DNA from: Protoeuglena noctilucae
Taxonomy: Eukaryota
Length of the DNA: 45,034 nucleotides
Reading direction: 5' to 3'
Assembly: GCA_958009085.1 (NCBI GenBank)
Contig: OY253691.1
Coordinates: 1 to 45,034 of the forward strand
Notes under the pieces: generated by a model
Told to the model about the DNA's origin: nothing
Databases searched by the model: none
Seen by the model: the letters and a program-made list of their open reading frames with translations, nothing else
Shown here: piece after piece, positions 8,774-11,481 of the stretch
Layout of the letters: each line of letters opens with the position of its first letter
Position numbering within the stretch: position 1 is the first letter of the stretch
Made by a program: the position numbers and the translations under genes

Positions 8774-11481
8774 GTGCGCCGTGCGGGCGTGCTGTCTGCT
8801 GTCTGATGAAGATGATCCTTACTCTGTATTATGGATTTAAAGTACTTTTCCCTACGGGGAAGCGTGAGCTTCCAGGTAGAAGCGGAAATGAAAGGGGGTC
8901 ACGGGCCAAATCCACTGGTCCTAACTTCCCCCGAACTAGGCCCTCTATGGTTAGGCTAACAAACCTGAGGAAACGTACCAAGTGGCGTAAAAATGCCGAT
9001 TCGTCAAGTGGAACTCGAAAGGCGAATCTCTCTGGTGTCCCTCCTGTGCTGTGGGGGAAGGGGCTTCACAGAGTCGGAGAACTACCTACGGTAAGTAGAG
9101 AGGTACGCAGGAACCTAAGGAGGGAGCGCAGACACACTGCTACCACGGGAGGGGTGAATTCACTAGTATCCCTAGTTAACCTAGTTAAAAAAACGAATTC
9201 ACCATTCGGAGCTCGCATACTACCAATGAAAGAGGTCAACTCCTCTTTCGCTTTTTCACGAATGAAAAATAGCATGGGAAGGACGAGCAGGACTTTTCTG
9301 AGTGGATCACTGCGTTGTATCAGTTCTACGGCTCTCTCTACCTGTGGAAAGCATAGATCAGAGAAAGCTAGAATCTGCCAACGTCTGGAGAAGCTCTCTA
9401 ATGACAATAAGACCACCCCGGACCTAAAAAATAAGGGGATTATTCACATCATCGCTGAAAAAGACTGTCTGAAGCTTAGATATGAGCTCATCAAATCCAA
9501 ACCTGGGAATATGACCCCTAGAGTCTCACAAGAAACTCTAGATTCACTGAACCTGGAATGGTTTGAGGGAGTGCGGAAGAAACTGCTAAGAGGACAATTC
9601 CAATTCTCCTCAAGGCGGCGGATTTTTATCCCAAAACCTGGACAAAAGGAAAAACGACCGCTTACGGTAGCTTCCAGACGAGAGAAACTAGTTCAGAAAT
9701 CTAGACAGCTTAGGCTGGAACAGGTCTTTGAACCAAGCTTTCTCCCATACTCCCATGGGTTTCGACCCGGACGGAGCTGTCATTCAGCACTTAAAGAAAT
9801 CTACTACAATTGGAAAGGTGTTAAATGGATTATTGAGGCGGACATTGCCAAATGTTTTGACCGGATTCATCACCAAATGCTACTAGATCTTGTAGAAAAA
9901 CGAGTAGAATGTAGGAAAACTCGAAGACTGCTTAAAGGAGCACTCAAAGCAGGCTGGGTAGAGCCCACTGGGGTAGCCGAGAAAGCTGTTCAGGGGACTC
10001 CTCAAGGGTCGGTTCTGAGTCCTCTTCTGTGTAACATTTACCTTCATGAACTTGATAAGTTTATGGATCAACTGATTCACAAAAAGAACTCAGGCCAAAT
10101 TCGAAAACCGAATCCCGAATACAATAAATGGAATCGTCGTCTCGAACGAGCGGCGGAAAAGGGAGATCTCACCAAAGCGTATGAATCCCGGAGTCATCTC
10201 TGGAAGATTCCTCGAGGAGATCCCATGGACCCTAACTATATACGGGTTCGTTACGTTCGGTACAGAGATGATTTCCTTATTGGAATCATTGGACCCAAAA
10301 GCCTAGCCAATGAAGTGCTTCAAGAAGTCCGCAGTTTCCTTAAAGAGGAACTTTTCCTTGATCTCAAAGACCAAAAAACTGGGATTCGACACTTCGACGA
10401 AACTTGGATTCGCTTTCTAGGGAGAGAAATTCTTGGTCGTCCCAAGAAGCTTTTTCTTACCAGAAAAGGACGAGCTCGACGAAGATCTCCCCCAGTAAGC
10501 TGGAAAGGGAAAACCTGGAAAACTACGATTTGGACCAAGAAACGTGTAACCCCCCGAGTCACTCTTCATGCCCCTACCGAGAGAATTTTCGCGAAACTTA
10601 AGACCAGAGGCATGGTAGAAAAGATTAAGGGTCAGTTTTACGGCAAAGCTTGGACCAAAATGGTGAACTGTAATCACCTGACCATCCTACGTCGATACAA
10701 TAGAATTAGGCAGGGATATCTGGAATACTACTACACGTTTGCTCGCAATCGTCGAGGTCTTAGAAGTCTACTTATGGTGCTGAAAAATTCATGTGCCAAA
10801 ACTCTTAGACTCAAGTATAAACTGAAATCTAGGAAGAAGGTATATGAGAAATTTGGAGATGGACTTTCTGTGGAGGCAGTTTCGGATGGAAAACACCCCA
10901 AAAAAACCAAACTGGTCAGTTTTGTAAAAATGAAAGATTACAAAATCCATCCTGACAGAAAGAAATTCCATAATCTTAATCCAGATTTTAGCAACCGTTT
11001 TCATTATTGGAGTGGAAAACTTACTCGTTCTAATCTAGGTCGAAGTTGTAGTATTTGTGGGGCTACGCCTACGGAAATGCACCACGTTTGATCCATTCGA
11101 GAACTTCGTAGCCGAGGACACCTTGATTGGTTTACTCTTCAAATGGCTGCGATCAATCGAAAACAGCTTCCGCTTTGTAAGCTACATCACCAAAAAGTTC
11201 ATTCCAATTCCCTCACGGAAAAAGAAAAAAACCTATGGAAGACAGCACTCAAAGATTGGTCTTTCACCTAAACAAAGTTTGGGTAAAAAGGAAGTTGTTT
11301 AGATTAGAAGCTTAGGTCGAACTTGTTATTAGAATATAGAAAAGTCTGGCGAGCCGTATGACGGGAAACTGTCACGTACGGTTCTGAGGGCAATTCCCAT
11401 CACCATACCATTTAACTTCTTTGGTTTCCCTCACAGGATGGCTAAGGAAAGAAAGTATGAAGGATGGCTATTGACCCCTAC
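8774..11481 (+). mobile_element. Group II intron 2 in cox1
   Basis: 5' GTGCG, domain V gagccgtatgacgggaaactgtcacgtacggttc near 11351, 3' gacccctAC; splicing restores FFPQ-HFLG. Confidence 0.93.
8806..11271 (+). CDS. Intron-encoded RT/maturase with HNH domain interrupted by TGA at 11089-11091
   Basis: IPKPG..RPL, GFRPGRSCH, ADIAKCFD, GTPQGSVLSP, Y(AGA)DD; frame continues after TGA with NRKQLPLCKLHH to TAA at 11271. Confidence 0.88.

What the first reader, a model, noticed from the sequence alone, without database searches (positions are those of the whole stretch)
8774..8830. Shared TGATGAAG stop/start cassette launching two group II intron ORFs (second copy at 20036-20043)
Seen: in cox1 intron 2 and the cox3 intron, the upstream exon frame reads 10-14 codons into the intron and meets TGA-TGA then TTA. 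The intron ORF begins at an ATG overlapping that TGA in the -1 frame (8806; 20035/20038). Both ORFs stay free of TAA, TAG, TGA, TTA and TTG for over 120 codons I read across the ribozyme region. Intron 1 uses a plain in-frame fusion. Established: organellar intron proteins are usually exon fusions or free-standing in domain IV. Inference: termination-reinitiation or a -1 frameshift at a poorly decoded UGA couples maturase synthesis to unspliced precursor.
Basis: partly seen in the sequence, partly recalled or inferred. Interest (0 to 1): 0.7.

Follow-up and report, generated by a model that had tools for sequence, protein, structure and literature searches.

The report
Intron maturase start overlapping exon stop
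Two self-splicing introns in a green-algal mitochondrial genome start their own protein gene at ATG codons placed exactly where the host gene's reading frame closes; this would allow coupled translation but does not show it, and the shared eight letters also match, as a mirror-image complement, a distant part of the same intron.

Summary
TGATGAAG lies 31 and 39 bases inside cox1 intron 2 and the cox3 intron. In both, the exon frame meets TGA-TGA there and TTA shortly after. The first ATG of each intron, in the exon's -1 frame, opens an RT/maturase frame with none of the five stop-type codons (TAA, TAG, TGA, TTA, TTG) across ribozyme domains I-III (chance about 1e-9 or less).

The genetic code is already published for marsupiomonadalean pedinophytes: AGR=Ala, UUA/UUG=stop, UGA almost unused, mtRF2a absent (PMC12574857). 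That paper already lists the first ORF as orf761.

About 38 of 120 homologues are also free-standing ORFs that start near the intron 5' end, so the layout is not unique.

The coupling idea stays plausible but unproven. No slippery site supports a -1 shift. Most of the geometry follows from the letters ATGATGA.

New here: the cassette is the reverse complement of the Leu-His-His codons of each intron's own HNH motif, about 2.4 kb downstream. The match is 9/9 in the cox3 intron and 7/9 in cox1 intron 2. Intron 1 has no ATG or TGA there, yet keeps an 11-bp match through three compensatory changes.

Verdict: a new variant of a known kind, of moderate interest.

The parts
8774..11481 (+). cox1 intron 2 (group II, phase 0 after CAA)
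   Evidence: GTGCG at 8774 after ...FFPQ. Rfam Intron_gpII hit at 11349-11481, 62.9 bits. Exon 3 starts HFLG at 11482. RNA-library contigs 8744-11511 end 30 bases beyond both junctions in X10 and X12.
8804..8811 (+). TGATGAAG cassette, copy 1. Exon-frame TGA at 8804, 8807 and 8813, and TTA at 8819. ORF-frame ATG at 8806 and 8812.
8806..11091 (+). RT/maturase ORF of cox1 intron 2 (761 codons to the TGA; the frame continues to TAA at 11269-11271)
   Evidence: Pfam RVT_1 at residues 275-542, Intron_maturas2 at 584-711, AI2M-like HNH at 748-794 when the TGA is read through. YADD is present with AGA=Ala.
11089..11091 (+). In-frame TGA inside the HNH motif
   Evidence: The column holds R in 22 and K in 2 of 24 homologues. 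The downstream frame still encodes the rest of HNH. The site is unchanged in RNA-library contigs.
11182..11190 (+). CTACATCAC (Leu-His-His codons of HNH), complementary to 8803-8811 in 7 of 9 positions
19998..23116 (+). cox3 intron (group II, phase 1)
   Evidence: GTGCG at 19998. Joint 19997->23117 with ends GT..AC in RNA run X10. Rfam hit at 22742-22823. Exon 2 fits the COX3 profile from 23119.
20036..20043 (+). TGATGAAG cassette, copy 2. Exon-frame TGA at 20036 and 20039, and TTA at 20045. ORF-frame ATG at 20035, 20038 and 20047 (TTATG overlap).
20035..22509 (+). RT/maturase ORF of the cox3 intron (824 codons to TTA)
   Evidence: Pfam RVT_1 at 363-609 and Intron_maturas2 at 635-760. YADD is present.
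22557..22565 (+). CTTCATCAT (Leu-His-His codons of HNH, read in a shifted frame), the perfect reverse complement of 20035-20043
   Evidence: the only - strand copy of the octamer in the window.
5491..8202 (+). cox1 intron 1 (group II, phase 1), with its ORF fused in frame to exon 1
   Evidence: Rfam hit at 7921-8005. EBS1-like hairpin loop ACCAGA at intron position 420.
5568..5578 (+). TTTGAAAAAGC, the homologue of the cassette in intron 1 (no ATG, no stop; read S-F-E-K-A in the fused frame)
   Evidence: MAFFT aligns it with both cassettes. Pairing shown.
7841..7851 (+). GCTTTTTCAAA in the decayed HNH remnant (HSLFQTK) of intron 1; 11 of 11 complementary to 5568-5578

Best explanation
The octamer marks the true start of two free-standing RT/maturase genes. 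Each gene begins 33-38 bases inside its intron and has to be translated straight through ribozyme domains I-III.

The two introns share the same eight letters because this stretch is held complementary to the Leu-His-His codons (CTN CAT CAY) of the intron's own HNH motif, 2.4-2.5 kb downstream. It is not a purpose-built stop/start device. The reverse complement of His-His is AUGAUG, which supplies the start codons. ATGA puts UGA into the +1 frame, which here happens to be the exon frame.

Translation starts at this AUG cluster on intron-containing RNA. The exon-frame UGA-UGA-UUA simply ends, or stalls, ribosomes that run in from the unspliced exon.

Shown: the coordinates, the frames, the selected open frame, the complementarity and its compensatory changes.

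Inferred: that the pairing forms in RNA, that AUG 8806/20035 is used, and where the ribosomes come from.
For: (1) Selected open frame. There are 0 of the five stop-type codons in 205 (intron 2), 275 (cox3 intron) and 286 (intron 1) codons of the ribozyme-overlapping part, against 18-27 in each off frame. None of 20000 Markov simulations per region gave an open frame. The analytic chance is 3e-9 to 7e-12. TTA/TTG avoidance fits the host's own code. AGA sits at the Ala of YADD.

(2) Start cluster. These are the first ATGs of each intron: 2 ATGs in the first 3 codons (intron 2) and 3 in the first 5 (cox3 intron).

(3) Homologues. By my reading of the printed rows, 60 of 120 listed hits match a loose domain-I anchor pattern (S[GER]x[EK][SR], typified by SGxES). 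Six of these are false hits inside the RT. About 38 begin with Met 3-47 residues upstream of the anchor without exon sequence. About 16 run on from cob/cox1-type exon sequence.

(4) Complementarity. The match is 9/9 plus a G-U pair in the cox3 intron, 11/11 in intron 1 and 7/9 in intron 2. Both partners lie at homologous places. Intron 1 differs from the cox3 intron at three cassette positions, and each difference is matched by the complementary change in the partner.

(5) Null test for the complementarity. Among other codon-aligned 9-mers of the same ORFs, a perfect complement in the first 800 intron bases occurs for 8 of 504 (intron 1) and 5 of 573 (cox3 intron). Each 9-mer scores 9/9 only against its own intron; cross-intron scores are 8/9 or lower.

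(6) CTTCATCA occurs only once on the + strand of the whole window, and it lies in the same intron as one cassette.

(7) The sequence is real and unedited in RNA-library contigs of two studies.
Against: The pairing is weak in intron 2. Its 7/9 with an internal A-A mismatch is the commonest null value.

The pairing is not seen in relatives whose DNA I could reach. In 30 de-duplicated HNH sites from 32 loci, most of them bacterial, the best complement in the first 140 bases after any GTGYG was 5-7 of 9. In 5 cases with full upstream sequence, own 9-mers scored no better than 9-mers from other loci (mean 7.0 against 7.24). L080 has only 7 bp, though at intron position 79 as in intron 1.

No known group II tertiary or secondary contact joins the 5' end of domain I to the 3' part of domain IV (recalled).

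Local hairpins compete in the cox3 intron and intron 1. The partial consensus fold put no helix on the cassette.

No data here show which AUG is used, or whether the protein is made at all.

The exon-frame overlap is somewhat rarer than chance. Of 741 ATGs in the window, 95 (12.8%) have a +1-frame stop overlapping them after at least 10 open codons, and the exon frame is the +1 frame only half the time. That gives roughly 0.4% for two introns, post hoc, so some selection for the overlap cannot be excluded.
Confidence: 0.45

Rival explanations
1. The cassette is selected so that ribosomes translating the unspliced host mRNA stop or stall at UGA-UGA/UUA and reinitiate at the overlapping AUGs. 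Maturase would then be made only from precursors that are translated but not yet spliced.
For: A stop and a start share bases in both introns even though the intron phases differ (0 and 1) and the distances from the 5' splice site differ (31 and 39 bases). In the cox3 intron the first functional stop TTA (20045-20047) overlaps ATG 20047 as TTATG, the analogue of the TAATG junction of nad4L/rpl16 at 17215-17219. There is no room for a leader of its own, because each AUG lies 32-37 bases from the splice site inside structured domain I. The base rate of the geometry is about 6% per intron. If the long-range helix is real it would hide the AUGs until a ribosome melts it, as in phage MS2 (recalled).
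Against: UGA probably has no release factor here (PMC12574857). The 'stop' that overlaps the AUG may therefore not terminate. In intron 2 the real stop TTA lies 13 and 7 bases behind the two AUGs. The tandem TGAs are an automatic by-product of ATGATGA. Intron 1 keeps the homologous element without ATG or TGA. Homologues start at varied distances, 3 to 26 codons before the invariant Lys, which does not suggest a fixed cassette. No expression data exist.
Confidence: 0.3
2. This is programmed -1 frameshifting at a hungry UGA. Exon-frame ribosomes slip back one base and continue as an exon-maturase fusion.
For: UGA is nearly unassigned (PMC12574857). The ORF is in the -1 frame in both introns.
Against: There is no slippery heptamer. 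GUC->UGU (intron 2) and GAA->UGA (cox3 intron) give no re-pairing. In the cox3 intron the ORF frame has TGA at 20014 and 20032, leaving a window of one codon for the slip. The presence of ATG at exactly that codon in both introns, and its absence in the fused intron 1, points to initiation.
Confidence: 0.03
3. There is no function. The open N-terminal frames are relics of a former exon fusion, the real start is a Met in domain IV or the ORFs are dying, and both the shared octamer and its complement are chance or shared descent.
For: All three intron proteins have lost mobility parts. Intron 1 has YADQ and no HNH. Intron 2 has a TGA at a conserved R/K column of HNH. The cox3 intron has a frame change between CxxC and HH. 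The octamer count is at chance level. PMC12574857 calls orf761 'not necessarily a functional gene'.
Against: Relic frames of 205-286 codons would not stay free of five stop-type codons. The intron 2 and cox3 intron proteins are only 35% identical to each other, so the frames have been kept open over a long time. The RT and X domains score well above Pfam cut-offs. Three exactly compensatory changes are not expected without selection.
Confidence: 0.1

Closest known systems
Exon-fused RT/maturase ORFs of mitochondrial group II introns (yeast cox1 aI1/aI2 type; 'core creep' as reviewed in PMC8393795, passages seen)
   Same: The ORF has spread upstream through ribozyme domains I-III almost to the 5' splice site. 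It has RT, X and AI2M-like HNH domains. Intron 1 of the same gene is a plain fusion.
   Different: In cox1 intron 2 and the cox3 intron the ORF lies in the -1 frame of the exon. It is closed off from the exon by stops and has its own AUG cluster 33-38 bases inside the intron.
Overlapping stop/start junctions (ATGA, TAATG) that couple translation of neighbouring genes in bacteria and organelles (recalled); in this window nad4L/rpl16 TAATG
   Same: A stop of the upstream frame shares 1-2 bases with the downstream ATG.
   Different: The upstream 'gene' is an exon read into an unspliced intron. The overlapping stop is UGA, which seems to lack a release factor in this lineage. Dependence on upstream translation is untested.
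Published annotation of marsupiomonadalean pedinophyte mitogenomes (PMC12574857; section 10 part 1 read, other passages seen)
   Same: The code is AGR=Ala and UUA/UUG=stop, with UGA nearly unused and mtRF2a absent. One tabulated mitogenome (Protoeuglena noctilucae) has the window's length (45,034 bp), a GC of 38.96%, and two cox1 introns plus one cox3 group II intron with RT/maturase ORFs. An 'orf761' ending in UGA is mentioned.
   Different: In the passages I saw, the paper does not discuss where the intron ORFs start, their frame relative to the exon, the HNH lesions or any long-range complementarity. Its supplements (PDF and XLSX) were not opened.
Long-range RNA pairing that masks a start codon until an upstream cistron is translated (MS2 coat/replicase 'Min Jou' interaction; recalled, not checked here)
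   Same: A start region is complementary to a distant coding segment of the same RNA.
   Different: Here the partner lies about 2.4 kb downstream inside the same ORF. Pairing is inferred only from complementarity and three compensatory changes among paralogues. Intron 1 has the pairing but no start codon.

Membership tests
Group II intron with intron-encoded RT/maturase (mitochondrial lineage) | 5' GUGYG and a domain V/VI consensus near the 3' end | tested here: met
   GTGCG at 5491, 8774 and 19998. RF00029 hits of 48.3, 62.9 and 49.3 bits against a gathering score of 40.
Group II intron with intron-encoded RT/maturase (mitochondrial lineage) | Protein with RT, maturase (X) and, optionally, HNH domains | tested here: met
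   RVT_1 with E 2e-30 and 2e-24. Intron_maturas2 with E 2e-23 and 7e-21. AI2M-like HNH scores 21.1 bits, below the 23-bit cut-off, and only if TGA 11089 is read through.
Group II intron with intron-encoded RT/maturase (mitochondrial lineage) | Splicing at the predicted junctions | tested here: met
   For the cox3 intron, the joint 19997->23117 appears in one RNA-library contig of X10. For cox1 intron 2 the evidence is only indirect: contigs stop 30 bases beyond both junctions in X10 and X12.
Group II intron with intron-encoded RT/maturase (mitochondrial lineage) | EBS1-IBS1 pairing inside domain I | tested here: inconclusive
   Intron 1 has a hairpin loop ACCAGA at intron position 420. The cox3 intron has a candidate at position 804. 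No 6/6 candidate was found in cox1 intron 2.
Exon-fused intron ORF (aI1/aI2 type) | [quoted passage not shown] | tested here: not met
   The exon frame closes at TGA 8804 and 20036, and the ORFs are in the -1 frame. The feature is met only by intron 1.
Exon-fused intron ORF (aI1/aI2 type) | ORF reads through ribozyme domains I-III | tested here: met
   The conserved RT0 block starts near residue 215 (intron 2) and residue 283 (cox3 intron). The upstream 205 and 275 codons are free of stops.
Termination-reinitiation (translational coupling) | Upstream stop within a few bases of the downstream start | tested here: met
   TGATG/ATGA at 8804-8809 and 20035-20041; TTATG at 20045-20049.
Termination-reinitiation (translational coupling) | The overlapping stop is recognised by a release factor | not testable with these tools
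   UGA is the first stop of none of the 16 Pfam-identified genes. mtRF2a is reported absent in pedinophytes (PMC12574857).
Termination-reinitiation (translational coupling) | Downstream translation depends on upstream translation | not testable with these tools
   Only contigs of RNA libraries were available. There is no ribosome profiling.
Programmed -1 ribosomal frameshift | Slippery heptamer X XXY YYZ at the shift site | tested here: not met
   The sites are GCU GUC UGA (intron 2) and UCU GAA UGA (cox3 intron). No re-pairing is possible in the -1 frame.
Long-range start-masking helix | Complementarity kept by compensatory changes | tested here: inconclusive
   Perfect in 2 of 3 window introns, with 3 compensatory changes. 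7/9 in the third intron. Absent from 30 other HNH-bearing introns, most of them bacterial.

The most novel reading that the evidence does not exclude
The AUG-AUG-AAG start region is one strand of a long-range helix with the Leu-His-His codons of the intron's own endonuclease motif, about 2.4 kb downstream. In unspliced pre-mRNA, ribosomes arriving from the exon melt this helix at the UGA/UUA block and expose the AUGs. Maturase synthesis is then gated by translation of the still unspliced host message, an MS2-like coupling device inside a group II intron. In the fused intron 1 the same helix survives only as a clamp that closes the 2.3-kb ORF loop.
Probability: 0.12. Interest if true: 0.8.

Novelty: new variant of a known kind. 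Interest (0 to 1): 0.5.

Why it matters
How mitochondrial group II intron proteins are translated is known by experiment only for the yeast exon-fusion type (recalled). Here the ORF has crept almost to the splice site, like a fusion, yet it sits out of frame with its own AUG cluster. About a third of the listed homologues look the same. This points to a widespread third mode of expression that has had little attention.

If the start region really pairs with the HNH codons, it would be a new regulatory or folding element of these ribozymes. It would also explain neatly why AUGAUG arises there.

The case also gives a natural test of what a mitoribosome does at UGA when no release factor and no tRNA for it exist.

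Tried and rejected
Looking for the cassette in related introns at the DNA level led almost nowhere.
- The metagenome scan (79 loci) and the viral-contig scan (78 loci) returned mostly bacterial introns of about 30-35% identity.
- They also returned a few exon-fused organellar introns (L080/L081 cox1, L083, L002 cob).
- The closer relatives (45% identity) are known to me only as proteins, because the tool that fetches their contigs is closed.

Other attempts that gave nothing usable:
- Rfam found no domain I-IV model for 8700-9600 (two spurious lncRNA hits).
- A consensus fold of three 5' ends gave no helix on the cassette and is based on too few sequences.
- Local folds were not more stable than shuffles (z -0.7 to -1.8).
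- A whole-region duplex fold was meaningless. One search timed out. In one search the controls were as good or better for 2 of 3 introns.

Rejected ideas:
- An AGGTAAGTAA-type motif upstream of genes looked at first like a start signal that the intron ORFs lack. It is a dispersed palindromic spacer repeat (102 hits on +, 100 on -), so I dropped the argument.
- I considered that TGA might encode Trp, as in some pedinophytes. tRNA-Trp has the anticodon CCA, no standard gene uses TGA, and the single in-frame TGA sits at an R/K column.
- Chloropicophyceae as the source were rejected, because their mitogenomes have 57-62 genes and the only introns described in the passages seen are group I (PMC6486808, passages).

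Runs X17 and X18 gave only short low-depth pieces and no informative variants in the introns.

The earlier-findings look-up returned nothing for this genome. By words it returned only exon-fused cases in other genomes.
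Full report
WHAT THE WINDOW IS. All genes lie on the + strand. There are 20 tRNA genes by ARAGORN, plus one tRNA hit with an insertion in its anticodon loop. The window also holds rRNAs, respiratory-chain and ribosomal-protein genes and three group II introns: two in cox1 and one in cox3.

The genetic code is deviant.
- AGA sits at conserved Ala positions, namely PDM-A-FP of cox1 and Y-A-DD of the reverse transcriptases.
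- TTA and TTG are absent from gene bodies and appear only where genes should end.
- The only tRNA-Leu has anticodon UAG, and tRNA-Trp has CCA.
- TGA is never inside a standard gene and is never the first stop of any of the 16 Pfam-identified genes.

This code is already in print for marsupiomonadalean pedinophytes: AGR=Ala, UUA/UUG=stop through a changed mtRF1a, UGA missing or very rare, and mtRF2a absent (PMC12574857; section 10 part 1 read, other passages seen). Table 2 of that paper lists one mitogenome (Protoeuglena noctilucae) of 45,034 bp and 38.96% GC, with two cox1 introns and one cox3 group II intron encoding RT/maturases. The text mentions a single UGA used as an apparent stop in 'orf761'. 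These features fit the window and the 761-codon ORF 8806..11091. I take this as the likely identity, by features only. The start at 8806 is therefore already the published gene model. In the passages I saw, nothing is said about the cassette. The supplements were not opened.

THE OBSERVATION. It holds in every detail.
- cox1 intron 2 starts at 8774 in phase 0. The exon frame reads 10 codons and then meets TGA 8804, TGA 8807, AGA, TGA 8813, TCC and TTA 8819.
- The cox3 intron starts at 19998 in phase 1. The exon frame reads 13 codons and then meets TGA 20036, TGA 20039, AGT and TTA 20045.
- The ORFs start at ATG 8806 (with a second ATG at 8812) and at ATG 20035, 20038 and 20047, in the -1 frame. 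These are the first ATGs of the introns.
- The octamer count in the window is at chance level: 3 found against 2.07 expected. Only the placing is special.
- Contigs from RNA libraries of two studies reproduce both regions without a single difference. One contig carries the spliced cox3 junction 19997|23117. The sequence is therefore not an assembly slip, and these sites are not edited. Such libraries can also hold DNA.

THE ORFS ARE REAL AND MUST BE READ THROUGH THE RIBOZYME. With AGA=Ala both proteins have RT (with YADD) and maturase domains. The conserved RT0 block begins near residue 215 (intron 2) and residue 283 (cox3 intron), so 205 and 275 codons overlap domains I-III. An EBS1-type hairpin lies at position 420 of intron 1. 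These stretches, and the 286 codons of the fused intron 1, contain none of the five stop-type codons, against 18-27 in each other frame. None of 20000 simulations per region gave an open frame. The analytic chance is 3e-9 to 7e-12. Avoidance of TTA and TTG shows adaptation to the host code.

THE LAYOUT IS NOT UNIQUE. The homologue search gave 2456 proteins with E<=0.001 among 8000 scored candidates. The best 120 were listed, at 36-47% identity.
- 60 of the 120 match a loose domain-I anchor pattern (S[GER]x[EK][SR], typified by SGxES). By my reading 6 of these are false hits inside the RT.
- About 38 start with Met 3-47 residues before the anchor, with no exon sequence.
- About 16 continue from cob, cox1 or other exon sequence, often through 'CAP' or 'SAP', which is GTGCGCC read in phase 1.

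Free-standing ORFs that begin a few dozen bases inside the intron are thus common in this family. Their start positions vary, which argues against one fixed cassette.

IS THE STOP/START OVERLAP MORE THAN CHANCE? Only mildly.
- Of 741 ATGs on the + strand, 324 have a +1-frame stop overlapping them, 95 of those after at least 10 open codons, and 17 with a second stop right behind.
- 11 of 26 gene starts read ATGA.
- The exon frame is the +1 frame with probability one half. One intron therefore shows the geometry at about 6%, and two at about 0.4%, post hoc.
- The tandem TGA is automatic once the letters are ATGATGA.

A -1 slip is mechanistically poor. There is no slippery heptamer and no possible re-pairing, and TGA 20032 sits in the ORF frame just before the ATG. 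Reinitiation is possible. The genome has a TAATG junction (nad4L/rpl16), a TAA-g-ATG junction (atp9/orf281) and a 20-base atp6/nad4 overlap. The cox3 intron has TTATG at its first functional stop. UGA, however, probably lacks a release factor. In intron 2 the true stop TTA lies 7-13 bases behind the AUGs.

A STRUCTURAL REASON FOR THE SHARED OCTAMER. The single - strand copy of the octamer (22557-22564) lies in the cox3 intron itself, in the Leu-His-His codons of the HNH motif. A scan for complements and explicit pairing gave three results.
- cox3 intron: ATGATGAAG(T) at 20035-20044 pairs with (G)CTTCATCAT, 9 Watson-Crick pairs plus one G-U.
- Intron 1: TTTGAAAAAGC at 5568-5578 pairs with GCTTTTTCAAA at 7841-7851, 11 of 11.
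- Intron 2: CTGATGAAG pairs with CTACATCAC, 7 of 9.

The 5' partners are the aligned cassette columns. The 3' partners are homologous codons: CSLHH, HSLFQ and CKLHH. Between intron 1 and the cox3 intron, three cassette positions differ, and each difference is answered by the complementary change in the partner. Intron 1 has neither ATG nor TGA there.

As a null, other codon-aligned 9-mers of the same ORFs find a perfect complement in the first 800 intron bases in 8 of 504 cases (intron 1) and 5 of 573 cases (cox3 intron). Each 9-mer scores 9/9 only against its own intron, and cross-intron scores are 8/9 or lower.

Results against the helix:
- The 7/9 of intron 2 is an ordinary null value.
- L080 has only 7 bp, though at position 79 as in intron 1.
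- 30 other HNH-bearing introns, mostly bacterial, show 5-7 of 9.
- A 5-case own-versus-other test was flat.
- Local hairpins compete.

I therefore regard a lineage-specific long-range pairing as likely but unproven. If real, it explains why AUGAUG, the complement of His-His, sits there.

MECHANISM, WITH ODDS. Most likely (0.45), the AUG cluster is the genuine start of a free-standing maturase gene, the octamer identity is owed to the pairing constraint, and the exon-frame stops are a by-product that ends read-in from unspliced exons. Dedicated coupling has odds of 0.3, frameshifting 0.03, and relic or chance 0.1. The boldest reading not excluded is that the helix masks the AUGs until exon-translating ribosomes melt it.

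COMPARISON WITH WHAT IS KNOWN. The closest known case is the exon-fused aI1/aI2 type, described as 'core creep' (PMC8393795, passages). The defining in-frame continuity is tested here and not met for two of the three introns.

A literature search for group II intron, upstream exon, in frame, maturase and translational coupling found 11 papers holding 4 of the 5 terms. None contained 'translational coupling'. Two other searches concerned the code. I found no description of an out-of-frame stop/start junction or of the complementarity, but these searches are narrow.

SIDE OBSERVATIONS. These are listed separately. Both HNH domains are broken by one lesion each, while the downstream part remains conserved.

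Noticed in passing
window 11089-11271: The intron 2 ORF 'ends' at TGA in the middle of its HNH motif, at a column that holds R in 22 and K in 2 of 24 homologues. The frame then runs 60 more codons through a well conserved remainder of HNH to TAA. This is either a very recent CGA>TGA nonsense change or low-level read-through of an unassigned UGA. The site is unchanged in RNA-library contigs.
   Followed up: partly
window 22420-22663: The HNH domain of the cox3 intron ORF is split by a one-base frame change between CxxC (ORF frame) and EIHHV...QMAALNRKQLPVCSLHHKKIH (another frame, open to TAA near 22661). The ORF frame itself ends at TTA 22507. This is the second single-lesion endonuclease domain in the window.
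   Followed up: partly
window 4202-4297: A tRNA hit (50.6 bits) has a 26-base stretch where the model has 3 in the anticodon loop. ARAGORN missed it. It may be an intron-bearing or disrupted 21st tRNA gene.
   Followed up: partly
window, intergenic spacers; also 8005-8202 and 22823-23116: AGGTAAGTAAGT-type palindromic repeats litter the spacers (102 pattern hits on +, 100 on -). They also fill about 200-290 bases between domain V and the 3' splice site of cox1 intron 1 and the cox3 intron.
   Followed up: partly
window 17215-17219; 38985-39004; 294-300: Standard genes also show stop/start overlaps or near-abutment: nad4L TAA/ATG rpl16 (TAATG), atp6/nad4 overlapping by 20 bases, and atp9 TAA-g-ATG orf281.
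   Followed up: no
window 5461-8241 against 4700-5490: In RNA-library contigs the intron 1 contig has higher depth than the exon 1 contig (1002.6 against 348.2 in X10; 936.1 against 86.7 in X12). This would fit accumulation of excised intron RNA. Contig depth is a poor measure, however, and DNA carry-over is not excluded.
   Followed up: no
window 14378-15644: Several joints and indels recur in the laid contigs of two or more runs. One example is 15028->15475, skipping 446 bases with 7 other letters between, seen in X10, X12 and X18. This suggests population variants in a repeat-rich spacer.
   Followed up: no
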